From a bacterium (GTDB lineage Bacteria; SZUA-182; DTGQ01), in contig JAILZY010000008.1 in the NCBI GenBank assembly GCA_023512255.1, forward strand, positions 3,508 through 67,507: 64,000 bases of DNA, written 5' to 3'. Positions 18,428 to 32,127 of this stretch are shown here, piece by piece. How positions within the stretch are numbered: the stretch's first letter is position 1; each line of letters opens with the position of its first letter. The translations under genes and the position numbers were made by a program. The notes below the pieces were generated by a model. It was not told the origin of the DNA and searched no databases. It saw only the letters and a list, made by a program, of their open reading frames with translations.

Positions 18428-19213
18428 CTATCTCTGGGGCTTTGTTGTCTGCTTTCGCAGCATGAGCAGCTCATCGTCCAACCCGTGGCGGAGAAGATCG
18501 AGTCTGGATGACGCAGCCACGAGGCTTTCGGCGTGGACCGGCTTGATCCGGAACGGGAAGAGGCTCGGGCTGTCGATCAGATCTTTCAGCGGAGCCGAAC
18601 AGCTGGCCCGGGCGTGGAGGGACGCTTCGGCCAGCCAGGCGATCAGTCGGGAATCCTCAACAGCCAGCGTTGTCCCGGCAGAGTAAATGCCCTTTGCGCC
18701 GCTCTCCTGAAGCACGCCCCAGTCGAGGTACGAACGCAGCACGCGGCGGGCTGCTCGGGAAACGGTCTCCCGCTCGCCGTATTGCTCGCGAACCCTGCGC
18801 TGGACATGAGCCGCGGCAGCGGAGCCCTGAAGCCTCAGAAGACGGCCGGTCTGAGTGGCTACACACGACCAGAACGGGTAGACGGCCATGACCATCCCCC
18901 AGTGGATGGCTAGGCGCAAGTTATGAGGACTGAGGACTGAGTACTGAGTAGAAAGAAAGGCAAGACCGTCGTTTCGCAACGGAATGAGATCCTCTGGTGT
19001 AGTTACCCAAATCTTGCGCATGATAGAGATAATTTTATTACGATTACATCCCTTCGCCTGGCCGCCTATGGAAACCTTGTCCTTTAGTAGCTCTTGCAAG
19101 GCATCATTGATCGCAGCCTTGTCATTCCCTGCCAAGACCAGGTTGGCTGTCTGCTCAAGCCATTCCAGACGCACCCGCTGACTGAATCCGATATGGTTTC
19201 TCCTGTATGTCAT
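18428..19213 (-). CDS. hypothetical protein; candidate BrxA-like terminal gene of the BREX-like cluster
   Basis: Last gene in the same orientation, downstream of pglZ, as expected for brxA in BREX type 3. I cannot verify the DUF1819 fold by eye. Contains an in-frame partial heptad repeat (LSTQYSVLSPHNL). Confidence 0.3.
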   Translation of the reverse strand: MTYRRNHIGFSQRVRLEWLEQTANLVLAGNDKAAINDALQELLKDKVSIGGQAKGCNRNKIISIMRKIWVTTPEDLIPLRNDGLAFLSTQYSVLSPHNLRLAIHWGMVMAVYPFWSCVATQTGRLLRLQGSAAAAHVQRRVREQYGERETVSRAARRVLRSYLDWGVLQESGAKGIYSAGTTLAVEDSRLIAWLAEASLHARASCSAPLKDLIDSPSLFPFRIKPVHAESLVAASSRLDLLRHGLDDELLMLRKQTTKPQR

Positions 19214-19228
19214 TCAGAATTCCTCTTA

Positions 19229-19337
19229 CGGGTTACGAGTTATGGGTTACGAGTTACGAGTCATTAAACTCACAACTCACAACTCACAACTCTCAACTCG
19301 TAACTCATCATTACCCAGTCCTCATCACTCATCACTT
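19229..19337. repeat. palindromic array of heptanucleotide units (GTGAGTT / ACGAGTT / GGGTTAC, then GTGATGA GTGATGA GGACTG) in the pglZ-brxA intergenic spacer
   Basis: Seen directly. About 14 heptad units; the two halves are approximate reverse complements. Confidence 0.7.
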
Positions 19338-21428
19338 CCCCACGCCTCGCATCTCGATATGTACCAGAGGGACGATGAGTTCCTCGACTGAAACGCCGCC
19401 ATGGCTCACGATGCGCTGCTTTTCCTGGACAAACGTCTGCCGAGCGGGGGCCAGCAGGGCGAGGTAGTCCTCCGGGAGACCAACGGTTCCCCATTCCATC
19501 GCGGCGGGAAAGCGTTCCTTCACCTTGGCGCGTAGGGCCGCGTCGGGATAGATGCGGACCCGTTCGCCGCGCAGGTCTGCCACAGCCCCTTCGGATGGAC
19601 GACCGCAGCCTTCCGCCTCGATGTTGCCATGATCAGAGGTCAAATAAACAAGGAAGCCCCGATCCAAGAGCAGATCGAGGAGTGTGTTCAGATACGGCTG
19701 CTTGGCCCACTGGCGCACCTGGTTGTGCATCCCGGCGGTGCCCATTTCCATCCCATGCATGATCCTGTCGACCTTGTCCACGACCAGCCCGACGACCCTT
19801 GCCTTGGTATGAGAAAGCGCTTCGGAAACGCTTTCCAGGCCGCCGTCGCCCAGACCCTTGAGGTAGACGACCTCGTTTGGTGCGAGGCCCTGATCTGCCC
19901 AGAACTGCGCCCAAAGTGCTGGTTCCTTGTCCGTGGTCTGGATGCTGTTCGGGAAAAAGATGGGAGCCTTGCCGGCAAAAGTTGCCTGGCGTGAGACTGA
20001 GGTAAGCGAAGGAATCCAGGCAAAGACCGCCTGCTCCCGGAATCGCAGTCCGGGCTGCTTTGCGGCAAGTGCTTCGCGGATCACCAGCCATTGGTCCAGG
20101 GCAAGGCCGTCGATCACCAACAAAGCGAGCTTTGTTGGTGATCGCAGTGATGAGTGATGAGGACCGGGTAGTGAGTTGGCCAAAAAGAGCGGGATATGAT
20201 GAACCATGGCCGGCGGATTTGGAGGCAACTGGATAAGTCCTGCATATCGCCTCTGTATCCAAGATAGAAATCGCTGATCGACCCTTCGTGTAAGTGCATC
20301 GATACGATCATTCTGTCTTTCACTCAGTCCCCAGTCCTCATTACTCATTACTTTCAATTCCGCCCATCCGCGGGCAAAGTGGAGCCAGTCCGTGTGCTTC
20401 GCGTCCTTGGCCGGGATGGATGCCTCTAGGCTGTCGATGAGCTTGGCCAGACGACGGGACCTGTCCTCTGTGGGAGCCGCTCTAACGCCGATGCCTACCC
20501 AGGTTTTGGACAGGGTTTCCGCATACTCGTGTGGGACTGGATGCAGCACACCCTCGACGAACAGGTTGTCGATGTAGACCCGGATGTCATGGTGGTCGAA
20601 GGGAAGTTCGACAGGTCCCTTGATGGATAGACCGTAGGGCTTCTCTTCCTCACGAACGACTGCCTGTGCCGTGCCCGGCACGGCAGACAGGCCTGCCTGT
20701 TCCGAGGCTTCGGCAGGCCTGCCGGACGCCCCTTTGGCTGCCTCACGGTCAAGAAAGATCGGCCAGCGCTCTTGGAGGAACGCGAAGAAGGCTTCCCTGT
20801 CCGCCACCAGTGTCTCAAGTGGCCATTCGTCGAAGATGTTAGTCTGGCGCAGAAGCTGGATGAACCGCTCGTCGAGGATAGCAGGGATGCGTTGTCCGCG
20901 GTAGTGACGGCGCAGGAGTACCCGCAGGAGGTCCGATGGCTGTTTGATCAGCTCGGGAGCGATTTCAAAGACGTGCCGGAGGACGAACTCCTTGGTGGCG
21001 TTGTCGCTAAGCTGGCCAGGTGCATGTCGGATCGAAGCCTGATACAAGGCATCGAGATCTCCTCTGTCCAGGGCGCTCACAACCGGGCAGCTTAGGTTCG
21101 GAAAGATTTCGCCGAGGTTGAAGGAGAGTTTGCGACCGGCCTGGAGTAGATCATAGGGTAACCCGCTGAGGTCGCTTGCTTGGGAGCGCAATACCACAAC
21201 GAGGTCCGTGTGCTCCCCGCGGTCCCAGCGGGAGCGAAACTTCGATTCATAGGCGTAGCGGAACGCGATACGGTCTTCGAACGGGATCAGCTCAAAGCCA
21301 CGCTCGCGGATGCCTTCGAGAATGCCTTCTTCGAGGAGCAGTCCGTCCGGATCGGCCACTAGGGTGAGTCGAGCGACCTTCGGAGTGAATTCCTTCAGGA
21401 TTTGATCGCGCCAGCTACTCATGGCCAC
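19332..21428 (-). CDS. pglZ: PglZ-domain protein (alkaline-phosphatase superfamily; BREX/Pgl core component)
   Basis: PglZ signature LALLVIDGLALDQW...SLTSVSR...TSDHGN, about 700 aa. Confidence 0.8.
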   Translation of the reverse strand: MAMSSWRDQILKEFTPKVARLTLVADPDGLLLEEGILEGIRERGFELIPFEDRIAFRYAYESKFRSRWDRGEHTDLVVVLRSQASDLSGLPYDLLQAGRKLSFNLGEIFPNLSCPVVSALDRGDLDALYQASIRHAPGQLSDNATKEFVLRHVFEIAPELIKQPSDLLRVLLRRHYRGQRIPAILDERFIQLLRQTNIFDEWPLETLVADREAFFAFLQERWPIFLDREAAKGASGRPAEASEQAGLSAVPGTAQAVVREEEKPYGLSIKGPVELPFDHHDIRVYIDNLFVEGVLHPVPHEYAETLSKTWVGIGVRAAPTEDRSRRLAKLIDSLEASIPAKDAKHTDWLHFARGWAELKVMSNEDWGLSERQNDRIDALTRRVDQRFLSWIQRRYAGLIQLPPNPPAMVHHIPLFLANSLPGPHHSSLRSPTKLALLVIDGLALDQWLVIREALAAKQPGLRFREQAVFAWIPSLTSVSRQATFAGKAPIFFPNSIQTTDKEPALWAQFWADQGLAPNEVVYLKGLGDGGLESVSEALSHTKARVVGLVVDKVDRIMHGMEMGTAGMHNQVRQWAKQPYLNTLLDLLLDRGFLVYLTSDHGNIEAEGCGRPSEGAVADLRGERVRIYPDAALRAKVKERFPAAMEWGTVGLPEDYLALLAPARQTFVQEKQRIVSHGGVSVEELIVPLVHIEMRGVGK

Positions 21429-24369
21429 CGCCCTCCACCCGAATCACAACCAGCGGCACCATGTCGGGATAGGTGTGAGCCTTCTGATCGAGCTGCTCAT
21501 GGAAGCTCCGCTCCTCTTGGGTCAGGAGGTTCAGGCGATAGTTGCGGACCTGGGGCAGGCCAATTCGCTCGATGGTTTTGCGGCGTGCGGCAAAGGCGTA
21601 GTCTGCCTTCTCACGCTCGCGTGCGATGCGGCCCCGATGCTCTTGCAGGAGCGCTTCGTAGATAGGTTTCCCGTGTTCCTCTGCGGCGCTTTGCAGCTTT
21701 GCTAAAGAGGCTTGGGAGACCTTGGCGTCAAGGACGGACCGGACCTTTATGTTTGCTGCGAGGAGCTGATCCCACACGTGTCTGGCCGTCGGCATATAGA
21801 CCATGCCGTTGTCGGCCAAAAAGAGAGGCATGATCCGCCTGCGGCGGGTCTCCGGTCCTGGGCCCAAGGTCACGGGGCCGTCCCACCGACTCGCGACCCG
21901 CGACCCGTTACTCACAATCGAGATTTGCCACAAGGACCAGATGCCCTGGACCTCCCCGGAGAGACCGGGGATTGATACGATAGGAACCGGCTGGCCCGGC
22001 GCAAAGCGGGGAAGTCGCATGGCCAGTTCGCGAATCCTAGGCTCTTCAAGGGTAAGATGCCGGGCGGTCGGAAGCCTCTCGGCTTCCTTGCCGGTGAAGA
22101 CTACATTCTCGTAGGTCTCACCGTCGGGCCAGGTGAGGTTCCAGCTCTGGCGTCTTTTCTCGGCCTGGCCGCCGTGCGCCTTCAGGTAGCTCACGGTCAT
22201 ACGCTCGATCCAATGGGGCAAGGGGTGAGTCAGCAGCCGCTGGGCTTCGCCAGGCTCCAGATCCTCGGTCGCGCCAAGTACCGATGCGGTCGTGCGCGCC
22301 TCGCGAGCCTGCTCCTGCAAGCGGGCAATCACGCTCTCCACGGATTCCTCCACCTTTTCGGGGTTGAGGATCGCCTCGACATACATCTCGTCGAACATGT
22401 GGCTCGCCTGGGCCGAGTCAAGGACGTCGCCGGTCTTGTCAATGCCGAACTCCTCGAAGATGACGGCGAGCTTCTGCTCCAGTACTTCAAGGACCCGATG
22501 CTCAACCGATCCTTCGAGGACCAAGTTAACCGCACGCACCGTATGAGCTTGGCCGATACGATCCACCCGACCAATCCGCTGTTCGAGTCGCATCGGGTTC
22601 CAGGGGATGTCGTAGTTGATCACCACGTGGCAGAACTGGAGGTTCAAACCCTCCCCGCCGGCGTCGGTGGAGATGAGAATCCGGACATCCTTGGCGAATG
22701 CCTCCTGGGCCCGCTTACGCTCTTCCATGTCCATAGAGCCATTCAGGCAGACGACTGAAAACCCGCGCTCTGTTAGGAACCAACGCAACATCTCTTGGGT
22801 GGGAACGAACTCGGTGAACACCAGTACCTTAAGCTCAGGGTCGCTCTCCTCGGCCTGGAGGCGGTAGAGCCAGTCTAGCAGTGCCTCGGCCTTGGCGTCT
22901 GGTCCGATCTGCTCGCAGCGAGCCGCGGCCTCCAAGAGCATCTTTACCTCGGCGCGCTCGTTCTTGAGCGCCTTGAGGCGGGTGCGAAGCAACACCTCGA
23001 TCTGCTCCTGGCCGTCCAAGTCAGCCCATTCCTCTTCGGAGTTGAGGGGGAACAGGGTCAGTTGTTCCTGAGGTGCGGCGAGCGCCTCGAGCCGCCTTTC
23101 AAGCGTAATGCGGATAGCTCTTGTGCTGGAGACCACAAGGCGCTGCATCAGGATCATCAGAAAGCCGATATAGCTGCGTTTCTCCCGCATGGCCTGGTTG
23201 TAGCCTTCGCGTACGTATTCTGTGACCGCCTCGTAGAGGAGCTGCTGATCGCGGTGCCGCTCTTTCCATGAGACCGGAGCAAGCTGTGTGCGCCGCGGCT
23301 TGAACAGCGGGTTTCCCTCTACGTCAATGGCGCGGCGCTTTTCGGTGCGGATGACATGCGGTTGGACTCGCTCGCGGGTGACGCTGCTCGTGTCCGGGAA
23401 TTCCTGGGTGTCGATAAGGGAAACGAGCCGATGAAAGGCGTCGGTCTTGCCCTGGTGCGGGGTCGCCGAAAGCAGCAGGAGATATGGCGCGGACTCGGCC
23501 AGCCCCTGGCCCAGTTTGAAGCGGGCCACCTGGTCGGTGCTGCCGCCCAGACGGTGCGCTTCGTCCACGATGACCAGGTCCCAGCCGGCGGAGATCAGGT
23601 CCTCGAACCGTTCGCGGGCCGCCGCGCCGCCGCTTCCCGCCGCAGGTTTGACGGAATCCATGGGAACCACAATCTGATCTAATATCCGAAAAGGATTCTG
23701 TGCGTCTCGGCGGAGTACTGAGGACTGAGTGCTGAGGACTAAGCGGTTTTCTTCATACTCAGTCCTTAGTCCTCGTGCCTCAGTCCTGTGGATTGCCGAG
23801 ATGCGCTTCAAGGTGCGGTAGTCTTCCGTAAGAACTTGATGGAACCGTTCATTGAAGTGCATTGCCATCTCGGCAATCCACTGCGTGACCAGCCCCTTTG
23901 GGGCGATGACCAGCGTCCGCTTGACCAGTCCGCGAAGCTTAAGTTCCCGCATAATGAGCCCAGCCTCGATGGTCTTGCCCAGGCCGACCTCGTCCGCCAG
24001 GAGATAGCGCACCCGGTCGCTGCTAATGGCGCGGGATAAAGCATGGATCTGGTGAGGAAGCGGAATGACGGAGGACTCAATGGGTGCGAGCAGGACGTCC
24101 TGTGTCAGTGCATCTGCTACCCGCGCGGCCGCAGCAATGTAGGCGATATGGTCCGCCGAACCGGTACCTGCACTATCCAGTGGTTTAAGTCTGGAAGCCG
24201 CCGGGATGCGGACCACCGAGTCGCTCCCGGGCAGCCAGACATGGCAGGTCGTCTCGCCCCAGAGCGTCTGGACTTCGATGACCTGACAAAGCTGCCCGTG
24301 GTCCGGGGAATACAACCACGAATGAACACGAATGGACTCAAATAAGTTCATAGGACAAGTCTCTCCCAT
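21415..24369 (-). CDS. SNF2-family superfamily-2 helicase (BrxHII-like)
   Basis: Motif I LADEVGLGKTIEAGL; DEAH box IVDEAHRL; C-terminal helicase domain; 984 aa. Confidence 0.8.
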   Translation of the reverse strand: MGETCPMNLFESIRVHSWLYSPDHGQLCQVIEVQTLWGETTCHVWLPGSDSVVRIPAASRLKPLDSAGTGSADHIAYIAAAARVADALTQDVLLAPIESSVIPLPHQIHALSRAISSDRVRYLLADEVGLGKTIEAGLIMRELKLRGLVKRTLVIAPKGLVTQWIAEMAMHFNERFHQVLTEDYRTLKRISAIHRTEARGLRTEYEENRLVLSTQSSVLRRDAQNPFRILDQIVVPMDSVKPAAGSGGAAARERFEDLISAGWDLVIVDEAHRLGGSTDQVARFKLGQGLAESAPYLLLLSATPHQGKTDAFHRLVSLIDTQEFPDTSSVTRERVQPHVIRTEKRRAIDVEGNPLFKPRRTQLAPVSWKERHRDQQLLYEAVTEYVREGYNQAMREKRSYIGFLMILMQRLVVSSTRAIRITLERRLEALAAPQEQLTLFPLNSEEEWADLDGQEQIEVLLRTRLKALKNERAEVKMLLEAAARCEQIGPDAKAEALLDWLYRLQAEESDPELKVLVFTEFVPTQEMLRWFLTERGFSVVCLNGSMDMEERKRAQEAFAKDVRILISTDAGGEGLNLQFCHVVINYDIPWNPMRLEQRIGRVDRIGQAHTVRAVNLVLEGSVEHRVLEVLEQKLAVIFEEFGIDKTGDVLDSAQASHMFDEMYVEAILNPEKVEESVESVIARLQEQAREARTTASVLGATEDLEPGEAQRLLTHPLPHWIERMTVSYLKAHGGQAEKRRQSWNLTWPDGETYENVVFTGKEAERLPTARHLTLEEPRIRELAMRLPRFAPGQPVPIVSIPGLSGEVQGIWSLWQISIVSNGSRVASRWDGPVTLGPGPETRRRRIMPLFLADNGMVYMPTARHVWDQLLAANIKVRSVLDAKVSQASLAKLQSAAEEHGKPIYEALLQEHRGRIAREREKADYAFAARRKTIERIGLPQVRNYRLNLLTQEERSFHEQLDQKAHTYPDMVPLVVIRVEGGGHE
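23714..23790. repeat. ~77 bp imperfect-palindrome repeat element built from GAGGACT-type heptads, in-frame inside the helicase gene
   Basis: The 3' 30 nt are identical (one mismatch) to the copy at 28617-28696. Translated in-frame as RTEARGLRTEYEENRLVLSTQSSVL. Confidence 0.7.
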
Positions 24370-24731
24370 TCGAGTTTTGGCTTTTTGAAATTGAGGATAA
24401 GGCCGACTTTGAGCTGGGTAATCTTCAGGTAGTTGAGCATCTGGCCACGTTCAACATCCGTAATACGGTCAATCGTCTTGGCGTCGACCACGATCTTATC
24501 AAAGGCAATCAAATCGGGAATGTAATCGCCCACCTTGACACCTTTGTAAATTACATCGAAGCGCGGCTGCTGCTTGTAAGGGATTCCTCTCAGGCCAAAT
24601 TCAACAACGAGTGCATTTTCATACGGCTTTTCCAGCAACCCATGCCCAAGCGTATTGAACACCTCCATGGCGCAGCCAACGATCTGGAATACCTCATCTT
24701 TGAACAGTAATTTGTGTTCCTTCGTGTCCAT
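24348..24731 (-). CDS. GxxExxY-family small protein (PD-(D/E)xK nuclease-like fold)
   Basis: 127 aa. VGCAMEVFNTLG matches the GxxExxY motif, with downstream D/E-x-K-type residues. Overlaps the helicase start by 22 nt. Confidence 0.65.
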   Translation of the reverse strand: MDTKEHKLLFKDEVFQIVGCAMEVFNTLGHGLLEKPYENALVVEFGLRGIPYKQQPRFDVIYKGVKVGDYIPDLIAFDKIVVDAKTIDRITDVERGQMLNYLKITQLKVGLILNFKKPKLEWERLVL

Positions 24732-24740
24732 TCGTGGTTC

Positions 24741-25667
24741 TCACTCCTCCCCCGCTCGAGTAACCGCCTGGTCGTACCACATGAGGAGCTTGGGGTCTTT
24801 CTGGAGGACGTTCTCAGGAATTTTGCGGGCCACAGCGATGATGGTGGCATAGTCGCGCTCCTGCCATGCCTTCTTGAATCCGGCCCGGACCGCCTCAAGG
24901 CGGAAGACCTTCAGTTTCCGCTGGCTGGAAGCCAGCGCCACACTGGAAGCCAGCGCCACATATTCTTGAAATTCCTTGAGCAGGGACCGCTCGCGCAGCT
25001 TCTCCAGGTCGATGGCCTTGTTCGGGTCAGGCACATACCAGCGGTCCTTGGCTTCGCGAAGCAGTCTCGGGTCCTGAGTCTCGAGTCCCGAGTCTTCTGA
25101 TCCGTCACCCGCGACCCGCGACTCGCGACTGATCAACTCCCGCCATGTAGCACTCTGCTTCATCCACGAGACGATTTGTTTTGGAATAGGCCCCTTGCCG
25201 TCATAGCGCAAGAAGTTCTGCTCCAGCAGCTCGGAAAGCTCCAGCAGCCTCTCGTGCTTATGCCAGCCGCTGATCTCCTTGAGGAATTGGGGGTGCAGTT
25301 CCTGGAAGGTCTGTGGCTTCCGTGTGAGCTGCTGTTTGAGCCACTCGATGGCTGAGGCCTCATCCGTGACAAAGAGCGGAAGCTGCACAAAGAGCGGAAG
25401 CTGCACAAAGAGCGGAAGCTGCAGCAACTTTCGGACAGCCATCCGCTTTTTGTCATACTCAGCCACCTGCTCGGGCAGGAAGTACATCCCGTCCCGTTCT
25501 GGGAAACGCTGGGCCAGCCCAGCGTAAAACTCCCCAGCGGATATCGGAACCATCACCCCACGCTGCACATGAAAGGCCACCATGCGGTCAAAGAGTAGGT
25601 AATTCTGGCGCTCGGCGATGATTTCCAAGGTGGAGCCTGCATCTTGCAGGCTATCTTCTTGCTGCAC
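24741..25667 (-). CDS. hypothetical protein, possibly the frameshifted C-terminal portion of the PglX-like methyltransferase
   Basis: Follows methyltransferase piece 2 after 10 nt in another frame. The three pieces sum to about 1255 aa (PglX-like size). Contains two in-frame 18-bp tandem repeat arrays. Confidence 0.35.
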   Translation of the reverse strand: MQQEDSLQDAGSTLEIIAERQNYLLFDRMVAFHVQRGVMVPISAGEFYAGLAQRFPERDGMYFLPEQVAEYDKKRMAVRKLLQLPLFVQLPLFVQLPLFVTDEASAIEWLKQQLTRKPQTFQELHPQFLKEISGWHKHERLLELSELLEQNFLRYDGKGPIPKQIVSWMKQSATWRELISRESRVAGDGSEDSGLETQDPRLLREAKDRWYVPDPNKAIDLEKLRERSLLKEFQEYVALASSVALASSQRKLKVFRLEAVRAGFKKAWQERDYATIIAVARKIPENVLQKDPKLLMWYDQAVTRAGEE

Positions 25668-25677
25668 CGGCTGACTT

Positions 25678-26910
25678 TTATTTTTGTTTAGCCTGCTGGA
25701 AGCAGGCTCTACTTTGCTTAGCCTGCTGGAAGCAGAACTCAGCCTGCTGGAAGCAGGCTCTCACAAATACCGGCAGTTGCTTCAGGTGAGTGCGGACAAA
25801 GTCCCAAACGCCTTGCTCCGTCCCCGCTTCGAGCTTGAAGCGTTCCTCTAGGCCACCGTTTGGCTTGTAGCAGGAGATGATGAGGTCCTGTTTGACCGCG
25901 GATGCTGAAGTTACCTGCTTGAAAGAACCTTGCTGCTTGTCCAGCGTGCGCACATCAGCAATGACAAAGCACGCGGCCTGCAGGGCCTCCTGGATCGCGT
26001 TCCAGACCGCGTTCTTGGAGTTGTGAAATTCCACCGTCATCCAGTGGCCCGGCTTGAGCACCCGGTAGTATTCTTTGAAACATTCGGTCATGAGCTTCTG
26101 GTATTCTGGCAGCCCTTTGCCCTGGGCGGTGTTTTCGATGGCCTCAGGCTTGTTGTTGGTAAAAACCTTAAGCCACGCCTCCCAGAGGAAATTCAGCTCA
26201 GAATACATCAGGTTGCCACCAAAGGGTGGGTCGGTGAAGATGTAGTCGATGGATTCGCCTGGTATTGGGAATACTGAAGAATCACAACAACCAATGGATG
26301 CCACCTTGATCTCGCCAAACCGTGGAGCTTCATGTTTTATGAGTCTCTGCAATTTACCGGTAAGAATGTAACCGGAAGACACTTCTACCTGTTGCGAACC
26401 GACGTATAACGTGCCACTAAGATACCGGTTTACTTGCGAAAAATGAGTAGGGACATACCGCGATATTTTCGCGAATCCCAGCGCCGCATACTGTATGAAA
26501 AACAAGCTCAATTTGTGCCGTGCCTTAAATGCCTTATCATACATCCCCCCCAGCACCCACAGATTCCGTCTGGTATAGAAATGGTGCACATGGGTGATGC
26601 CGTGGGAAACTTTAGGTTGCTCCGTGTTATAGCCCTCCGGCATACGATCCGTCGGAAACCAATATGGTATTTCCATCTGCTCAATTTTTTCGATAAGTGC
26701 TAGATCGAAGGCGTCGGGCGTCTTTTCGAATCGCTGCTTTCCCACGCTATAGTTGATGAGCACCGGCACTTGTTTGGCTTGCCTGATGGTCTGATTAATA
26801 GCCTTATCAAATTTGGTAACCCAAGCCCGTTCCATTAGGCGTTTGGTGAGCAGGGTGCCGCAGTGGGGGCAGGGAAATTTGTCATGGATTTTGCCCGCTT
26901 CCTTATTCAC
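25678..26910 (-). CDS. DNA methyltransferase fragment (amino-methyltransferase catalytic motif DPPF), piece 2; in-frame continuation of 26920..28533 across a TAG
   Basis: Catalytic motif IV IFTDPPFGGN. Begins with a CPHCG half zinc ribbon. Starts at GTG three codons after the TAG of the upstream piece, in the same frame. Confidence 0.7.
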   Translation of the reverse strand: MNKEAGKIHDKFPCPHCGTLLTKRLMERAWVTKFDKAINQTIRQAKQVPVLINYSVGKQRFEKTPDAFDLALIEKIEQMEIPYWFPTDRMPEGYNTEQPKVSHGITHVHHFYTRRNLWVLGGMYDKAFKARHKLSLFFIQYAALGFAKISRYVPTHFSQVNRYLSGTLYVGSQQVEVSSGYILTGKLQRLIKHEAPRFGEIKVASIGCCDSSVFPIPGESIDYIFTDPPFGGNLMYSELNFLWEAWLKVFTNNKPEAIENTAQGKGLPEYQKLMTECFKEYYRVLKPGHWMTVEFHNSKNAVWNAIQEALQAACFVIADVRTLDKQQGSFKQVTSASAVKQDLIISCYKPNGGLEERFKLEAGTEQGVWDFVRTHLKQLPVFVRACFQQAEFCFQQAKQSRACFQQAKQK

Positions 26911-26919
26911 GGCAGCCTC

Positions 26920-28533
26920 CTAGAAGACTACCTCTTGGGTGCAGTTTGGGCAGACAAAGACATCGGACCAGACGGTATAGTTGATTTTTCCCAGTGGAGC
27001 CGGCTTCCAGCCGGCTGAAACCAATTCTTTTGCTACATACCGCCATTCATAATCCAGCGGCCGCCTTACCAGGCCAGCTTTGACCGGGTTATGGTTTACA
27101 TAAGCCAGTGTGGCCATCAGTTCTTTGCTATCGCGGATGATTCGATCATAGCTTTCCGTCTGCCATACTGTAGTCCCAGTTTTTTGCTCCAATTTATTCA
27201 CTTCATTGGCTGAATAGCTTTTAACACTGTGAAGAATCTCAGATAGATCCCAGGGTGCGTCTTTTTGTTTTTCGAGAGGTTTGGCCACGATATGAACATG
27301 ATCTGGCATAACCACCGCAGTGAACACCTTCCAGCGCTTTTGATCCCAGAATAAAATCGCATCCAGAACAATTTTCCTGGCTGGTTCACTGAGAACGCGC
27401 AGGTCGTGTGTTCTGAATGTAACAAAATAAGTGGCCCCGGGAACCTGGATGTGGGGTAGGTTATCTTTTCTGAAGGTTGATTCGTTTGTCTGAAATGGAT
27501 TGCAGGGCTCGAAGTTTATTGCTGATATAAGCCTGCTGGAAGCAGGCTCTACATGCAGGGTCTCATACATCCAGCCGCATTCGGCTTCCACTTCCTTCAG
27601 GATGCGCCTGGCTTCACGCTCAAAGGCCACGACATCCACCGGGGTGTTGTAGTTATAGGCGATGAAGGTGGCAGCAGGCGACAGGTCATTCAAGACAGCC
27701 CGCCGCGCGCCAAGTTTCGAAAATGGTTTCCAGATGGTTTTGCCGCTCTCTTCGGTTTCCTTCTGATAGATCACCCCGTCCTTATCCACCCGGTAGCCCA
27801 GCGCCTCGACCGCTGCTTTATCCCCGCACATCTGCGCTGCTACGCCGGTCATCCCTGTCCCGCAGAAGCCGTCGAAAACGATATCCCCAGGCTCGGTGTA
27901 ATGCAGGATGTAGCGCATTACGGCCTTGTGCGGCACCTTAGTGTGGTAGGAGTGGGCATTGTAGATCGGATCGTTCTTGCCCTCGCTCACATCCGCGGCA
28001 AAGGGCTCGCGGTGATAGGGTTTATCCACAAAGGCACACGAAGCCCCACCAAGAGATTTCTCTTGTTCGTACATCTTCGTGTCCTTCGTGGATTCCCAAT
28101 ACCTTACCATGTCGGCGATGAAGGGATTGGGGCAGGCGGTGTAGTAGGGTGGGTCGGATAGTGCCAGGATGTCCTCGTCGCTGCCGTGCGGGAAGCCGAC
28201 CTCGTCCTTGTAAAGGCTGAGGAGGTCTCGGGGCACGGGTCGTGAGTCGCGGGTCGATGATGCAGCGTGGGCGATGCGTCCTGCCAGGTAGCGGATTTGC
28301 TCGTCATTGCCCAGCAGCCAATGCTCGAGGGATTTCAGCCGCTGGTAAGTATCTTCGAGACTCGTAAAGGGGACGGAAAGCTTTTCTCGCATCTCCTGCA
28401 AGCCTGCTCGCAAAATGCCGAGAAAAGCTTTCTGCCGCTCTTCGTCGTTCGGGAACGTTAGCCCCAAGCAGGTCACGGGTTTATGGTGTTTGATTTCTGG
28501 TTTCTCGTTGTCGAATAGGATGTCCATGTTCAT
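26920..28533 (-). CDS. DNA methyltransferase N-terminal module fused in-frame to an IS200/IS605-type Y1 HUH transposase domain, piece 1
   Basis: Methyltransferase motifs SDPPYY (aa 127-132) and FDGFCGTGMTG (aa 220-230). Y1 transposase domain at aa ~362-495 with HUH motif PDHVHIV and catalytic-Tyr motif VWQTESYDRIIRD. C-terminal CPNC half zinc ribbon, then TAG. Confidence 0.75.
   Translation of the reverse strand: MNMDILFDNEKPEIKHHKPVTCLGLTFPNDEERQKAFLGILRAGLQEMREKLSVPFTSLEDTYQRLKSLEHWLLGNDEQIRYLAGRIAHAASSTRDSRPVPRDLLSLYKDEVGFPHGSDEDILALSDPPYYTACPNPFIADMVRYWESTKDTKMYEQEKSLGGASCAFVDKPYHREPFAADVSEGKNDPIYNAHSYHTKVPHKAVMRYILHYTEPGDIVFDGFCGTGMTGVAAQMCGDKAAVEALGYRVDKDGVIYQKETEESGKTIWKPFSKLGARRAVLNDLSPAATFIAYNYNTPVDVVAFEREARRILKEVEAECGWMYETLHVEPASSRLISAINFEPCNPFQTNESTFRKDNLPHIQVPGATYFVTFRTHDLRVLSEPARKIVLDAILFWDQKRWKVFTAVVMPDHVHIVAKPLEKQKDAPWDLSEILHSVKSYSANEVNKLEQKTGTTVWQTESYDRIIRDSKELMATLAYVNHNPVKAGLVRRPLDYEWRYVAKELVSAGWKPAPLGKINYTVWSDVFVCPNCTQEVVF
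27049..27450 (-). other. embedded IS200/IS605-family Y1 (HUH) transposase-like domain within the methyltransferase ORF
   Basis: GATYFVTFRT...PDHVHIV...TVWQTESYDRIIRD...HNPVKAGLV carries all hallmark motifs of TnpA(IS200)/RAYT. Confidence 0.7.
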
Positions 28534-29072
28534 TCCGTCCCTGGCGTAACAATTAAAAAATCGTGAACTGGATATCGTCTGTATTCTGGGTGATCCGGCG
28601 TCGCATAGACCAAATAGAGTGATGAGGACTGAGTGATTAGTGCTGAGTCTTCGGACGTCTCTGACTCAGTCCTCAGTCCTCGTGCCTCAGTCCTGATTTT
28701 GCCGCTCCAAGCCGCGACCACCGTCTTGTTCCGCGAGAGCCTCTGCAGAAGCCGCAACGGGTCCTGCTTGAGAGAGACATCGAAGAGGACCTCGATGTTG
28801 TCCAGCAAAACCACATCGGCTGCGGATGCGCCCACGATATCTGCAAGGAGGCGGGGCAACTGCAAGGCCCGCTGGCGCTCGGTGAGGTCGAGCATTCGCC
28901 GGGAAAGCTCGAGGTTGACGTTGACCAGAGGAGCCGCCGTGCGCTCATGGACATCCTGGAGAGCGGCGGTCTTGCCCGCACCAGCCGGGGCCACCAACAT
29001 GACAAGCCGGTGGTACAGCTCGGCAGCCTGGCCAATTCTCTTTATGACTCTATCGGCGAGTGGCTCCGCCAT
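28530..29072 (-). CDS. P-loop NTPase, BrxF-like (BREX type 3)
   Basis: Walker A LVAPAGAGKTAAL. Small size and first position in the cluster fit BrxF. The likely start is MAEPLADR at 29072; the track ORF extends to 29132. The C-terminus carries an in-frame repeat-element insertion. Confidence 0.5.
   Translation of the reverse strand: MAEPLADRVIKRIGQAAELYHRLVMLVAPAGAGKTAALQDVHERTAAPLVNVNLELSRRMLDLTERQRALQLPRLLADIVGASAADVVLLDNIEVLFDVSLKQDPLRLLQRLSRNKTVVAAWSGKIRTEARGLRTESETSEDSALITQSSSLYLVYATPDHPEYRRYPVHDFLIVTPGTE
28617..28696. repeat. second copy of the same palindromic heptad element, in-frame near the C-terminus of the BrxF-like gene
   Basis: Shares GATGAGGACTGAGTG...ACTCAGTCCTCAGTCCTCGTGCCTCAGTCCTG with the copy at 23714-23790. 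Encodes IRTEARGLRTESETSEDSALITQSSSL. Confidence 0.7.
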
Positions 29073-29097
29073 TAGCGATCTCTCTTCCCGAACCAAG

Positions 29098-29241
29098 CTA
29101 ATTCGCCCGCGTTTTTTCAAGCCAATGGTCAATGGCTCCTTTCTGGAAACGCCAGTGTCGGCCGATTCTCTGGGAGAGGATCTTGGCTTCCCGAACGAGC
29201 TTGTAGAGTGTTGACTTCGGCATTTTCAGGTAGGCGGCCAA
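29098..29241 (-). CDS. small excisionase/AlpA-family HTH DNA-binding protein
   Basis: Found by manual translation; not in the ORF track because under 60 aa. LSIEELAAYLKMPKSTLYKLVREAKILSQRIGRHWRFQKGAIDHWLE matches the excisionase-family HTH consensus. The start codon is uncertain: TTG at 29241 or ATG at 29223. Confidence 0.5.
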   Translation of the reverse strand: MAAYLKMPKSTLYKLVREAKILSQRIGRHWRFQKGAIDHWLEKTRAN

Positions 29242-30031: not shown

Positions 30032-30391
30032 TCAATTTCGCAACTTCCGGCACCTGATTCGACAGCCAGGCATGACCATTGTCGGATTAGGTAAATCTCC
30101 CGCCAGATAAGCCGAGATGACCTCCTCCACATTTCCAGCAATGAAAGATATTATCTTGATCCCATATGCAGTCAGTAAATTGGCCAGGGGTTTGGAAATA
30201 GCTCCACAGAGCAGCGTTTCCACCCCCATCTCGGATAATCTGGCTGCCCTTCTTACCGGGTCATGCTCATCCAACCTCTGGCTACTTTTGGCAACAATAG
30301 TTCCGTTTTCGATATCTAAAAGGAGAATCTGCCGGGAGACATCAAACACCGGCGAAATCCTCCCATTCCAAATTGCTAAGGCTGTTCTCAT
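30032..30391 (-). CDS. dinitrogenase FeMo-cofactor-binding domain protein (NifX/NifB-C-terminal-like)
   Basis: MRTALAIWNGRISPVFD...LLCGAIS...GIKII matches the Nitro_FeMo-Co family. The track ORF extends upstream to 30568, but the domain starts at the Met near 30391. Confidence 0.6.
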   Translation of the reverse strand: MRTALAIWNGRISPVFDVSRQILLLDIENGTIVAKSSQRLDEHDPVRRAARLSEMGVETLLCGAISKPLANLLTAYGIKIISFIAGNVEEVISAYLAGDLPNPTMVMPGCRIRCRKLRN

Positions 30392-30648
30392 AGGGAACAT
30401 TTTTCTCCGATTTGATGCTTTCTTAATATGAGTAATAAGCATCCGATATGCCATCTGAGGAAGAATAAAGGTACAAGGAGAGATAAAGCAGTCAAATAAA
30501 CGACTTGTCGTTTTGGCAGATGGCAGCCGCCACCTTATTGAGTAGCAGAAAAGCAACTTTATAGACAAAATGAAGTCGCTTTTTTGCTCCTATTCCTACT
30601 AATGGCTGGGCAACCGTCTCTTGTCTGTTTTTTTCAGTCTGTTCTTTT

Positions 30649-32127
30649 TCAGCCGCGATAGCGTCCGTCTCTTTCAGGCAGGCTGATGCCAAGGGACTTG
30701 ATCTTGCGAAACAGGGTACTTTTGTGGATGCCGAGCTCCCGGGCTGTGGCCAGGCGGTTAAAGTGGTTTCGCTGGAGCGCTTGGCGAATTGTCTGAGCCT
30801 CTACTGCCCTGATGGCGGTAGCTATTTCACCACTCCTAGGAGGCAGCAGATCGCGGGCGACAAATTCATCCGGCAGGTGGCAAGGCTCGATCAGGCCCTG
30901 GTTACAGAGAACAAAGGCATATTCGATAATATTTTCCAGCTCCCGGATATTGCCAGGATAGTCATAGGCCATGAGAAAGGCCATAACCTGTGAGCTGACG
31001 CCGGAGATGGATTTGCCTTGCGTGCGGTTGAACCGAGATATGAAATGATCAACCAGAAGGGGAATATCCTCCTTGCGTTTTCGCAGAGGCGGAAGCTCCA
31101 TTCTGACCACGTTGATCCGATAGTACAAATCCTGGCGAAACAGTCCCTTTTTAACCTGGACCTCGAGATTGCGGTTAGTGGCGGCGATTATTCGCACATT
31201 GGCCTTGATGGATATGGTGCCGCCAAGCGGTTCATAGACTCTTTCCTGTAAAACCCGCAGCAGCCGAACCTGTAAGGCTGGGCTCACTTCGGCAATTTCA
31301 TCAAGAAACATGGTCCCACCTTCGGCCAGGGCAAATCGGCCTGGCTTATCCCTATCCGCACCAGTGAAAGCACCTGCCTTATAGCCAAAGAGCTCTGATT
31401 CCAGTAAGGTATCAGGCAGAGCCCCACAGTTTATGGCTATAAAGGGTTTGATAGCCCGCGGGCTGAGGTTATGCAAGGTGCGGGCTAGCAATTCCTTGCC
31501 TGTTCCGGTCTCACCCTGGATAAGTACAGTGCTGTCACTGGCAGCCACCTGGGGCAAGACATCGAATATGCGGCGCATTGAGGCGCTTCGGCTCACCAGA
31601 TCGCCTGCCTGAAAGCGGCCCTCAAGCTCTTTGCGAAGCTCCTCAACCAGGCTCAAATCACGAAAGGTTTCTGCTCCACCGATAACCTGTCCCTTTTCAT
31701 TTCGCAAAAGAGCCGTAGATAAACTGATGGGAATGCGCCTTCCCCGAGCATCGACAATAAAGGCAGATCTATTGATGATCGGCGCTCCTGTCTCTAGGGT
31801 ACAGCGCAAAGCGCAATCCACCTCACACATGCTGGAGCGAAAGACCTCAGAACATAGCCTGCCAATGGCTTCCCGGCGGTCAATGCCCATGATTTCCTCT
31901 GCAGCCCGATTAAAGGAGGTGATTCGCCACTCTCTGTCTACGGTAAATACACCGTCTGAAATACTTTCTAGGATGATTTTCGTCGGGTTGGAAGCAGAAA
32001 ATGGCAATCTTGGTTCATTATTCTCGGCTGTCTTTTTCATAATCTTATGATATTTGATATTTTTTAAAAATCTACACTTTTGCAGAACTCTCCCCATGCC
32101 TTGAACTTCTTGAAAATTATCTTTCAT
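30649..32127 (-). CDS. sigma-54-dependent transcriptional activator (PAS + AAA+ + HTH)
   Basis: GETGTGKELLARTLH Walker A; GAFTGA loop; C-terminal Fis-type HTH. The true start may be the Met at about 32040. Confidence 0.85.
   Translation of the reverse strand: MKDNFQEVQGMGRVLQKCRFLKNIKYHKIMKKTAENNEPRLPFSASNPTKIILESISDGVFTVDREWRITSFNRAAEEIMGIDRREAIGRLCSEVFRSSMCEVDCALRCTLETGAPIINRSAFIVDARGRRIPISLSTALLRNEKGQVIGGAETFRDLSLVEELRKELEGRFQAGDLVSRSASMRRIFDVLPQVAASDSTVLIQGETGTGKELLARTLHNLSPRAIKPFIAINCGALPDTLLESELFGYKAGAFTGADRDKPGRFALAEGGTMFLDEIAEVSPALQVRLLRVLQERVYEPLGGTISIKANVRIIAATNRNLEVQVKKGLFRQDLYYRINVVRMELPPLRKRKEDIPLLVDHFISRFNRTQGKSISGVSSQVMAFLMAYDYPGNIRELENIIEYAFVLCNQGLIEPCHLPDEFVARDLLPPRSGEIATAIRAVEAQTIRQALQRNHFNRLATARELGIHKSTLFRKIKSLGISLPERDGRYRG

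What the first reader, a model, noticed from the sequence alone, without database searches (positions are those of the whole stretch)
23714..23790. Heptad-based palindromic repeat element inserted in-frame into the helicase gene, with a near-identical copy in the BrxF-like gene
An ~77-bp imperfect palindrome made of GAGGACT / CAGTCCT heptads (GTACTGAGGACTGAGTGCTGAGGACTAAG...ACTCAGTCCTTAGTCCTCGTGCCTCAGTCCTG) lies inside the SNF2 helicase ORF. It is translated without stops as HRTEARGLRTEYEENRLVLSTQSSVL. A second copy at 28617-28696 shares the terminal 30 nt (one mismatch) and encodes IRTEARGLRTESETSEDSALITQSSSL inside the P-loop gene. A partial copy at 18923-18952 encodes LSTQYSVLSPHNL in the brxA-like gene. 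Mobile palindromic elements that insert in-frame into ORFs and are tolerated are known from Rickettsia (RPEs); a similar phenomenon concentrated in a defense island is unusual. It may mark recombination or diversification sites.
Basis: seen in the sequence. Interest (0 to 1): 0.8.

Follow-up and report, generated by a model that had tools for sequence, protein, structure and literature searches.

The report
In-frame heptad-repeat hairpins in BREX genes
Several genes of a horizontally acquired, decaying BREX type 3 phage-defence island carry small hairpin-forming inserts built from 7-base repeats that stay in the reading frame; they were inherited with the island rather than inserted in this genome, and they belong to a repeat class found in many bacterial phyla.

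Summary
Imperfect palindromes of GAGGACT/AGTCCTC-type heptads lie in frame in BrxHI (23713-23788) and BrxF (28617-28696), and a one-armed array lies in BrxA (18924-18950). They share a 32-mer with one mismatch.

The RPE-like reading is only partly right.
- "Clean" orthologues lack the inserts: Syntrophus buswellii has none, and 69 of 120 BrxF clusters lack it.
- The same inserts sit at the same sites in BREX-3 islands of other hosts, so they came in with the island. The island's proteins are 83-91% identical to those copies, while the host EF-G is about 60% identical to any named taxon.
- Copies share only the heptad arms. The loops are unrelated and there is no target-site duplication, so this is not a classical MITE.
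- (GAGGACT)n-loop-(AGTCCTC)n units occur in many phyla, mostly between genes, with a fixed polarity (32 to 2).
- Similar inverted heptad arrays bracket small four-helix-bundle (S23p/IVS-type) and GxxExxY genes.
- In every helicase-site copy read, the one heptad that would give TGA is altered, which indicates selection for an open frame.
- The arrays coincide with the edges of divergent, mosaic cassettes.

The closest known class is the STRR heptanucleotide repeats of cyanobacteria. I rate it a new variant of a known kind, of moderate interest.

The parts
23713..23788 (-). Heptad palindrome in frame in BrxHI (aa about 194-219). In gene sense: 5' arm CAGGACT GAGGCAC GAGGACT AAGGACT GAGT, loop about 13 nt, 3' arm TTAGTCC TCAGCAC TCAGTCC TCAGTAC.
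28617..28696 (-). Heptad palindrome in frame in BREX-3 BrxF. 84 nt stand where the clean orthologue has 15 nt. It encodes a loop predicted to be disordered.
18924..18950 (-). One-armed heptad array (ACTCAGT ACTCAGT CCTCAGT CCTCAT in gene sense) in BrxA, a net +5 aa relative to L125.
20130..20360 (-). Two inverted heptad arms (gene sense: AAGTAATGAGTAATGAGGACTGGGGACTGAGTG ... CTCACTACCCGGTCCTCATCACTCATCACTG) bracketing about 150 nt of PglZ coding sequence that is a divergent allele.
21856..21912 (-). G+C-rich heptad insert (GGGTCGC GGGTCGC GAGTCGG ...) in frame near the C-terminal end of BrxHI, encoding NGSRVASRWDGPVTLGPG. Present in L002 and L004, absent in L001 and L125.
25063..25133 (-). G+C-rich heptad palindrome (AGTCGCG/GGGTCGC ... 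GACTCGG/GACTCGA) in the C-terminal PglX fragment; 14 extra aa (ISRESRVAGDGSED).
28224..28256 (-). Degenerate G+C-rich heptad run inside a 52-aa insertion of the N-terminal PglX fragment.
19226..19336 (.). Heptad palindrome between brxA and pglZ (TTACGAG-type and AACTCAC-type arrays); folds at -39.9 kcal/mol.
24314..24740 (-). GxxExxY (PDDEXK_3) mini-gene 24348-24731, bracketed by the inverted repeat GAACCACGAATGGACACGAA (24721-24740) and TCCATTCGTGTTCATTCGTGGTT (24314-24336). Its TGA overlaps the BrxHI ATG (ATGA at 24348-24351).
18428..29072 (-). Host locus: BREX type 3 island with BrxF 28530-29072, PglX in three pieces 24741-28533, GxxExxY gene, BrxHI 21415-24351, PglZ 19332-21428 and BrxA 18428-19213. 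BrxC is absent. G+C is 55-61% against about 45-50% in the flanks.

Best explanation
The elements are hairpin-forming arrays of 7-bp repeats, (GAGGACT-like)n - loop - (AGTCCTC-like)n. They belong to the same general class as the STRR heptanucleotide repeats of cyanobacteria.

Shown:
- They were not inserted in this genome. They are older insertions or replacements in one sub-lineage of a BREX type 3 island and arrived with that island by horizontal transfer.
- The island is now decaying in this host: BrxC is lost and PglX is broken.
- They sit in variable or disordered loops of the proteins.
- Only versions that keep the frame open are seen.

Inferred:
- The arrays are essentially selfish or neutral DNA. 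They grow and are homogenised by slippage or hairpin-templated copying.
- They move between islands by homologous recombination together with flanking sequence. That is why they now mark the edges of mosaic cassettes.
- They are related to stem-plus-ORF mini-elements of the 23S-rRNA-IVS type, whose loop carries a four-helix-bundle (S23p) or GxxExxY gene.
- They add a tolerated loop to the protein and have no required protein function.
For: 1. Clean orthologues exist. The S. buswellii island L125 has no period-7 array at all, even at a lowered threshold. Its BrxF is 158 aa, like 68 of the 120 listed clusters. Against L125, window BrxF is 91% identical, with 84 nt in place of 15 nt.

2. The inserts are inherited. 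The same helicase-site palindrome is in L001, L002 and 8 metagenome contigs. The same BrxF insert is in 51 of 120 clusters, including Desulfoglaeba, Desulfosoma and Syntrophobacteraceae.

3. The island is foreign. BREX proteins are 83-91% identical across phyla, while the window's EF-G is about 60% identical to any named taxon. G+C is 55-61% against about 47%.

4. It is not a transposing copy. Loops are unrelated even within one genome, and no duplication flanks the BrxF insert.

5. The frame is under selection. A pure (GAGGACT)3 gives TGA in every frame of the sense strand. In all 7 distinct helicase-site sequences the second heptad is altered in five different ways (GAGGCAC, GAGGGAA, GAGGGCC, GAGGGGA, GAGGTAC), each removing the TGA. 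The other heptads stay canonical.

6. The insert is tolerated as a loop. In the AF2 model of BrxF the insert is the only segment with pLDDT below 50 (residues 130-152) and has no secondary structure.

7. The class is widespread. At least 120 genome loci in many phyla hold it, with polarity 32 convergent to 2 divergent. Most lie at ORF edges. A few are in frame in ordinary genes: a sensor kinase in L016, aspartate kinase in L052, a beta-lactamase-like gene in L117.

8. There is a link to mini-genes. Most four-helix-bundle genes examined have heptad arrays on both sides, mostly inverted (L001 9621, L002 12997, L099, L123; L136-L138 from an independent viral-contig sample). L108 has an array upstream only, and L001 6281 and L134 are weak. 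GxxExxY genes are bracketed by a different inverted repeat.

9. The islands are mosaic. Residues diagnostic for insert carriers are confined to helicase aa 156-243. DNA identity is about 90% except in cassettes at the arrays. The PglZ and helicase N-terminal cassettes end at arrays.
Against: - How the arrays arise and spread is not shown. No enzyme is identified.
- The fixed polarity and the recurrence of the same heptad across phyla are not explained by slippage alone. They hint at a dedicated machinery or a common mobile ancestor.
- The arms are better conserved at the DNA level than neutral loop-coding sequence should be. Hairpin stability is kept in 6 of 7 diverged BrxF inserts, z = -2.4 to -6.4. 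In L141 both arms switched flavour together. All three could mean selection on the structure, which is rival 2.
- The rest of the source genome could not be scanned, so copies outside the island cannot be excluded.
- The STRR relation rests on my recollection of the STRR1 sequence (CCCCAGT).
Confidence: 0.62

Rival explanations
1. RPE/MITE-like mobile element: a non-autonomous palindromic transposable element recently inserted several copies in frame into the genes of this island, in this genome.
For: It is palindromic and in frame, absent from clean orthologues, and the two copies share a near-identical 32-mer. Some genomes hold many dispersed copies of the same arm type; Blastocatellia SSF51 has them on at least 9 contigs.
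Against: Loops are unrelated between copies. There is no target-site duplication, and 15 nt were replaced rather than interrupted. The same inserts lie at the same sites in islands of other hosts. No copy lies outside the island in 64 kb. No cognate transposase was found; the RAYT in the island goes with a different REP hairpin.
Confidence: 0.08
2. Selected nucleic-acid structures: the hairpins are kept because they act on the DNA or the operon mRNA. They could be RNase III-type processing or stability sites, as in 23S rRNA IVS stems, or frame-preserving portable homology that lets diverged BREX islands swap modules.
For: Arm DNA is conserved beyond what a disordered loop needs. Hairpin z-scores are -2.4 to -6.4 in 6 of 7 BrxF orthologues, against 0.0 at the empty site. 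Both arms changed flavour together in L141. Arrays lie at cassette edges in PglZ and the helicase. The PglZ cassette is as close to other PglZ lineages (55-68%) as to the array-less allele of its own lineage (51%). IVS stems are cut by RNase III (PMC4990558).
Against: RNAalifold gives no covariation support: the covariation term is +1.55, with 3 compensatory pairs and many broken ones. The most diverged BrxF insert has lost the hairpin (z = -0.6). Many BREX-3 islands do without any array. Most genomic copies are intergenic, with no common context.
Confidence: 0.22
3. Phase-variation switch: slippage by one 7-nt unit shifts the frame and turns BREX genes on and off.
For: The unit length is not a multiple of three. 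Defence and modification genes are often phase-variable through simple repeats (general knowledge).
Against: The arrays are short (3-5 units) and imperfect, which disfavours slippage. The BrxF insert keeps almost the same length (about 23 aa) in 51 diverged clusters. No frame-shifted variant at an array was seen among the loci read. The window's PglX is broken by a nonsense codon and a REP cluster, not at a heptad array.
Confidence: 0.05
4. Ordinary native protein segment: the palindrome is a by-product of a low-complexity peptide and has no meaning at the DNA level.
For: The segment is conserved in many BrxF orthologues.
Against: The same heptads occur in non-coding DNA, as hairpins, in many phyla. 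Within the island they occur in an intergenic spacer and in unrelated proteins. Variation in the arms is confined to heptad-type variants rather than synonymous changes.
Confidence: 0.03

Closest known systems
STRR, the short tandemly repeated repetitive heptanucleotide sequences of heterocyst-forming cyanobacteria. They are also reported inside the RNase P RNA gene (Vioque 1997; title seen in the reference lists).
   Same: Tandem 7-nt units. The unit GGGGACT at window 20322-20336 is, from memory, the reverse complement of STRR1 (CCCCAGT), and GAGGACT differs from it by one base. Both are dispersed, occur inside functional genes and are tolerated there.
   Different: Here they occur outside cyanobacteria, in many phyla. 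They are organised as inverted pairs with a fixed polarity, lie in frame in protein genes of a mobile defence island, and are linked to S23p/GxxExxY mini-genes. I could not read the primary STRR papers.
Rickettsia palindromic elements (RPEs)
   Same: Palindromic DNA inserted in frame into unrelated protein genes and tolerated there (review PMC10969869).
   Different: RPEs are families of about 150 bp with a conserved full-length sequence and encoded peptide. Here only the heptad arms are shared, the loops are unrelated, and the copies are inherited with a transferred island.
23S rRNA intervening sequences (IVS) carrying an S23p ORF
   Same: A long stem made of terminal inverted repeats with a four-helix-bundle ORF in the loop, regarded as a selfish element (PMC4990558). 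The same architecture is seen in L001, L002, L099, L123 and L136-L138.
   Different: These sit in protein-coding operons rather than rRNA. The stems are built of heptads. The two elements of the finding have no ORF in the loop.
REP/BIME elements with RAYT transposases
   Same: Small dispersed palindromes. A genuine REP-RAYT-REP unit lies in the same island.
   Different: The REP here is a single 17-nt hairpin (GCCTGCTTCCAGCAGGC) with no heptad periodicity, and one of its clusters breaks the frame of pglX. The heptad elements have no associated RAYT.
MITEs
   Same: Terminal inverted repeats, small size, non-coding origin, and occasional in-frame fusions.
   Different: No target-site duplication, no conserved interior, and no identifiable parent IS.

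Membership tests
Rickettsia palindromic elements (RPE) | Palindromic element inserted in frame in protein-coding genes | tested here: met
Rickettsia palindromic elements (RPE) | Copies of one family share a conserved full-length sequence and encoded peptide (about 100-150 bp) | tested here: not met
   Only the arms are shared. Loops differ between the two window copies and among orthologues and genomes.
MITE | Terminal inverted repeats | tested here: met
MITE | Target-site duplication flanking the insertion | tested here: not met
   At the junction of window BrxF against L125, 15 nt are replaced and there is no direct repeat.
MITE | Conserved internal sequence among copies and a related autonomous element | tested here: not met
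   Loops are unrelated. No matching transposase was found in the window or the loci.
STRR heptanucleotide repeats | Tandem arrays of a 7-nt unit | tested here: met
   TRF period-7 arrays; phased GAG pattern, 6 found against 0.01 expected
STRR heptanucleotide repeats | Unit sequence of the described STRR families (STRR1 CCCCAGT, from memory) | tested here: inconclusive
   AGTCCCC/GGGGACT is present once at 20322-20336. The main unit GAGGACT differs by 1 nt. The reference sequences are recalled, not read.
STRR heptanucleotide repeats | Host is a (heterocyst-forming) cyanobacterium | tested here: not met
   The host's EF-G is nearest to unclassified bacteria. The arrays occur in Acidobacteriota, Chloroflexota, Desulfobacterota, Nitrospirota and others, as well as cyanobacteria.
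23S rRNA IVS-type element | Stem of inverted repeats enclosing an S23p (four-helix-bundle) ORF | tested here: not met
   The two elements of the finding have loops of 13-30 nt with no ORF. The architecture is met by neighbouring elements in related loci.
23S rRNA IVS-type element | Excision of the stem from the transcript by RNase III | not testable with these tools
   Needs RNA end mapping.
REP/RAYT | Short G+C-rich hairpin repeated in the genome, with a cognate RAYT gene flanked by REPs | tested here: not met
   For the heptad elements no RAYT is associated. The island's RAYT (NF047646, 99 bits) is flanked by a different hairpin.
Phase-variable simple sequence repeat | Perfect tandem tract whose unit number varies between close relatives and shifts the frame | tested here: not met
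   The tracts are imperfect. The BrxF insert length is nearly constant in 51 clusters, and no frame-shifted array was seen.
BREX type 3 (host locus) | BrxF, BrxC, PglXI, BrxHI/HII, PglZ and BrxA in one operon | tested here: not met
   All are present except BrxC (tblastn finds nothing). PglX is interrupted. The locus is a decayed member.

The most novel reading that the evidence does not exclude
Inverted heptad arrays are produced or recognised by a dedicated machinery tied to the small four-helix-bundle (S23p/Avd-like) and GxxExxY nuclease mini-genes. They act as frame-preserving, portable recombination joints that let BREX (and other) gene modules be exchanged between diverged islands across phyla. 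This would be a cassette-shuffling system for defence genes that has not been described.
Probability: 0.15. Interest if true: 0.85.

Novelty: new variant of a known kind. Interest (0 to 1): 0.55.

Why it matters
If the descriptive picture holds, three things follow.

1. STRR-like heptad hairpins are not a cyanobacterial peculiarity. They are a cross-phylum class of small repeat that can live inside protein genes, as RPEs do in Rickettsia.

2. They travel with mobile defence islands and mark where those islands are mosaic. That is useful for reconstructing how BREX modules are exchanged.

3. The recurrent bracketing of S23p/IVS-type and GxxExxY mini-genes by such arrays links three poorly understood things: STRR-type repeats, rRNA intervening sequences, and the small 'orphan' genes that litter restriction and BREX operons. 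This makes the old question of how IVS-type elements move testable.

For annotation there is a practical point. Peptides such as RTEARGLRTE and LSPQSSVLSP in proteins are signatures of these DNA repeats, not of protein motifs.

Tried and rejected
- Rfam search of 17-31 kb at E <= 1 gave only two chance miRNA-like hits on the intergenic heptad hairpin, far below the gathering scores.
- RNAalifold on 7 BrxF insert orthologues gave no covariation support. The shifting heptad register makes a single consensus structure a poor model.
- Literature: nothing found for GAGGACTGAGGACT or AGTCCTCAGTCCTC apart from two unrelated primer hits. 'GxxExxY' appears only in a paper classifying reverse transcriptases. 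One search on 'heptameric' was wasted on protein heptamers. Elhai 2008 (small dispersed repeats) and Vioque 1997 are not held.
- A viral-contig scan with a single IVP protein found nothing. The same scan with an alignment found 5 loci.
- The exact helicase protein P0001 is not in the contig index, so the source contig beyond the window could not be fetched.
- The idea that loops at the helicase site sometimes carry a cargo ORF was checked on 8 metagenome contigs. None does.
- A search for the donor lineage of the PglZ cassette in the 50% representative library gave only fragments with the same arm-bracketed allele and distant PglZ at 42-63% identity. No clear donor was found.
- tRNA scan of the window: no genes, so there is no obvious integration site for the island.
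Full report
**1. The observation**

On the + strand, 23713-23788 reads GAGTACT GAGGACT GAGTGCT GAGGACT AAG - 14 nt - CTCAGTC CTTAGTC CTCGTGC CTCAGTC CT. The arms at 23714-23743 and 23758-23787 are 73-89% complementary, depending on the register. Either strand folds about 4 SD better than dinucleotide shuffles.

It lies in the minus-strand ORF 21415-24369 and is read through as HRTEARGLRTEYEENRLVLSTQSSVL. A second palindrome at 28617-28696 is read as IRTEARGLRTESETSEDSALITQSSSL. The two share a 32-mer with one difference, where none is expected by chance. At 18924-18950 there is a one-armed array, LSTQYSVLSPHNL.

The genes are a BREX type 3 set on the minus strand: BrxF, PglXI in three ORFs, a GxxExxY/PDDEXK_3 mini-gene, BrxHI, PglZ and BrxA.

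**2. More of the same in the island, and nothing outside it**

TRF finds period-7 arrays almost only between 18.9 and 28.7 kb. They comprise:
- an intergenic heptad palindrome at 19226-19336;
- two inverted arms in pglZ, at 20130-20175 and 20322-20355;
- G+C-rich heptad inserts in brxHI (21856-21912) and in pglX (25063-25133, 28224-28256).

The phased pattern GAG-N4-GAG-N4-GAG-N4-GAG occurs 6 times against 0.01 expected, always in the island. The island has 55-61% G+C against about 45-50% around it.

**3. The inserts are absent from clean orthologues**

The BREX-3 island of Syntrophus buswellii (L125) has no period-7 array at all. Against it the window proteins are 82-91% identical for BrxF, BrxHI, PglZ and BrxA. 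The length differences fall on the repeat elements.

In BrxF, 84 nt of heptad palindrome stand where L125 has 15 nt (IDGEHM). The flanks are about 93% identical at the DNA level, and there is no target-site duplication. Among 120 BrxF clusters, 69 lack the insert and 51 have it. Most helicase orthologues have a shorter loop at the site. An AlphaFold model of BrxF puts the insert in the only segment with pLDDT below 50 (residues 130-152), with no secondary structure.

**4. The inserts were not made in this genome**

The helicase-site palindrome, with the same arms and a different loop, is present in islands L001 and L002 and in 8 metagenome contigs. A further island, L004, has a G+C-rich heptad palindrome at the same site.

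The BrxF insert is shared by Desulfoglaeba, Desulfosoma, Syntrophobacteraceae and Dissulfuribacterales copies. The helicase is 83-87% identical in Synergistaceae, Dehalococcoidales and Syntrophus. By contrast, the window's EF-G is only about 60% identical to any named taxon.

So the island is a recent import and the elements came with it. In this host the island is decaying:
- BrxC is missing.
- pglX carries an in-frame REP-RAYT-REP insertion at 26992-27558 (RAYT NF047646, 99 bits).
- pglX also has a TAG at 26920-26922.
- A frame-shifting triple REP cluster lies at 25690-25770.

**5. They are not a classical mobile element**

The hits lie in Acidobacteriota, Chloroflexota, Desulfobacterota, Nitrospirota, Gemmatimonadota, Planctomycetota, Proteobacteria and cyanobacteria. 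Only one of these loci is a BREX-3 island.

Typical units are (GAGGACT)3-5, then a loop of 12-425 nt, then (AGTCCTC)3-5. The loops are unrelated even within one genome. The polarity is almost fixed: 32 pairs run GAGGACT...AGTCCTC against 2 the other way.

Most units lie at the ends of open frames, that is, between genes. A few are in frame in ordinary genes: a sensor kinase receiver domain (L016), an aspartate kinase linker (L052) and a beta-lactamase-like protein (L117). Shared arms, unrelated loops and no duplication do not fit an RPE or a MITE.

**6. Selection for an open frame**

Because of the palindrome's symmetry, the sense strand of any gene reads (GAGGACT)n first. A pure run gives TGA in all three frames within 21 nt. 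The complementary arm (CTCAGTCCTCAGTCC = LSPQSSV) is open in all frames.

In all seven distinct helicase-site sequences the second heptad of the 5' arm is altered, in five different ways: GAGGCAC, GAGGGAA, GAGGGCC, GAGGGGA and GAGGTAC. Each removes the TGA, while the neighbouring heptads remain canonical. BrxF copies do the same (GAC CGA or GCA CGA).

This explains the odd 'CGTGCC' shared by the two window copies, and so much of their apparent near-identity. It also shows that the genes were under purifying selection after the arrays appeared.

**7. Link to hairpin-enclosed mini-genes**

In L001 a four-helix-bundle gene (TIGR02436, PF05635) sits between GTAGGACTGAGCTTAAAGGACTGAGGACTGAGT and CTTCAGTCCTCAACCCTTAGTCCTCAGTCCTCC. 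The helicase start codon lies in the right arm and overlaps the mini-gene's stop.

Similar bracketing by heptad arrays of various flavours, mostly inverted, is seen for other such genes. It holds in L001, L002, L099 and L123, and in 3 of 4 loci from an independent viral-contig sample, where the mini-gene splits a methyltransferase-like gene. L108 has an array upstream only.

The window's GxxExxY gene (24348-24731) is bracketed by a 20-nt inverted repeat, and its TGA overlaps the BrxHI ATG.

This is the architecture of 23S rRNA intervening sequences: a long terminal stem with an S23p ORF in the loop, cut by RNase III (PMC4990558). PF05635 proteins are also homologues of the DGR protein Avd (PMC10053308). 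The short palindromes of the finding look like cargo-less relatives of these units. That is an inference. No orthologue with cargo at these two sites was found.

**8. Arrays and mosaic cassettes**

Helicase genes of five islands are about 90% identical at the DNA level, with three exceptions:
- the first about 270 nt;
- a tract of about 300 nt around the palindrome;
- the second heptad insert.

Residues diagnostic for carriers of the palindrome are confined to aa 156-243. The presence or absence of each element is combined differently in each island.

In PglZ, the two inverted arms bracket a segment of about 75 aa. The window and L002 share this segment at 82% identity. Its 49-aa loop is only 51% identical to the array-less allele of L001, L004 and L125, and identity resumes immediately outside both arms. 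The enclosed segment is as close to distant PglZ lineages (55-68%) as to the other allele.

The divergent helicase N-terminal domain of L001 and L002 likewise ends at an array. So the arrays coincide with recombination boundaries. Three causes remain open:
- the arrays provide portable homology that promotes the exchange;
- they act as a heterology that blocks homogenisation;
- they are left at the junctions as filler.

**9. Is the hairpin itself selected?**

Six of seven diverged BrxF inserts still fold better than shuffles (z = -2.4 to -6.4). The most diverged one does not (z = -0.6), and the empty site gives 0.0. In L141 both arms have switched to the GTGATGAGT/ACTCATCAC flavour. RNAalifold, however, finds no net covariation. 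The evidence is mixed. I keep 'selected structure' as the main rival.

**10. Comparison with known classes, and verdict**

The closest described class is the STRR heptanucleotide repeats of cyanobacteria, which also occur inside the RNase P RNA gene (Vioque 1997, title). From memory STRR1 is CCCCAGT, whose complement GGGGACT occurs in the pglZ arm and differs from GAGGACT by one base.

In their effect on proteins the elements resemble RPEs (PMC10969869), but they fail the tests for RPE, MITE and REP membership. I found no paper describing GAGGACT-type inverted arrays, their cross-phylum spread, their bracketing of S23p/GxxExxY genes, or their accumulation in BREX-3. The searchable library is incomplete, though.

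Verdict:
- It is a new variant of a known kind, of moderate interest.

Noticed in passing
window 26992-27558 (minus strand), hairpins at 27531-27547 and 26999-27015: A complete REP-associated tyrosine transposase (NF047646, 99 bits against a cut-off of 80) is inserted in pglX, between PglX residues about 219 and 226. It is flanked by REP-like hairpins (GCCTGCTTCCAGCAGGC and GCCGGCTTCCAGCCGGC) and is in the same frame as PglX on both sides, with no stop.
   Followed up: partly
window 25690-25770 and 26920-26922: Three tandem REP hairpins (GCCTGCTTCCAGCAGGC) between PglX residues 631 and 638 bring a TAA and a frame shift. A separate in-frame TAG interrupts pglX at 26920-26922. All copies of this REP in the 64-kb window lie inside the island (9 matches against 0.29 expected).
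   Followed up: yes
window 28533-29132 and the whole window: brxC is missing: brxF is followed directly by pglX, and tblastn with L125 BrxC finds nothing in the window. All related islands read (L001, L002, L004, L125, L139, L140, L142) have BrxC. The BREX-3 system here is probably not functional.
   Followed up: yes
window 20658-20720 (minus strand, pglZ): A 21-aa in-frame insert unique to the window (RPAEASEQAGLSAVPGTAQAV). It is made of two adjacent G+C-rich hairpins (GGCCTGCC...GGCAGGCC and CTGCCGTGCC...GGCACGGCAG) with no heptad period. The surrounding 81 nt (20650-20730) fold at -46 kcal/mol.
   Followed up: partly
window 25369-25423 and 24925-24960 (minus strand, C-terminal pglX fragment): Perfect in-frame 18-nt tandem duplications: 3.1 copies encoding QLPLFV repeats, and 2 copies encoding VALASS-type repeats. 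Both are absent from L125.
   Followed up: no
window 58378-60474 against 18428-29072: EF-G is about 60% identical to the nearest named taxa (Syntrophorhabdaceae, Nitrospinota, NC10) and 85-99% identical only to unclassified 'bacterium' MAGs. The host is a poorly described lineage. The BREX genes are 83-91% identical to copies in several phyla.
   Followed up: partly
L001 9480-10230; L002 9500-10210: A four-helix-bundle mini-gene with heptad arms sits between an orphan 27-aa helicase N-terminal fragment and a full but divergent helicase N-terminal domain. The new helicase start codon lies inside the right arm (ATGA overlap). This suggests that insertion or replacement brought flanking sequence with it, as in homing.
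   Followed up: partly
L136, L137, L138 (viral contigs), around 480-1080: Four-helix-bundle genes split methyltransferase-like ORFs and are flanked by inverted heptad arrays of other flavours (TAGTGGT/ACCACTA and CAGTTGC/GCAACTG).
   Followed up: partly
L016 6077-6099; L052 1812-1834; L117 2146-2182: GAGGACT-type arrays lie in frame inside ordinary genes of other phyla: a hybrid sensor kinase receiver domain (Nitrospiraceae), an aspartate kinase linker (Coleofasciculus) and a beta-lactamase-like protein (Syntrophobacteraceae).
   Followed up: no
L005-L124 (120 genome loci): Paired arrays have a nearly fixed polarity: 32 pairs run 5'-(GAGGACT)n...(AGTCCTC)n-3' and 2 the reverse. Hairpin stability alone does not explain this.
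   Followed up: partly
window 30032-30568 and 30649-32127: Next to the island lie a dinitrogenase FeMo-cofactor-binding-family protein and a sigma-54 activator with a PAS domain. No tRNA or integrase marks the island's border in the window.
   Followed up: no
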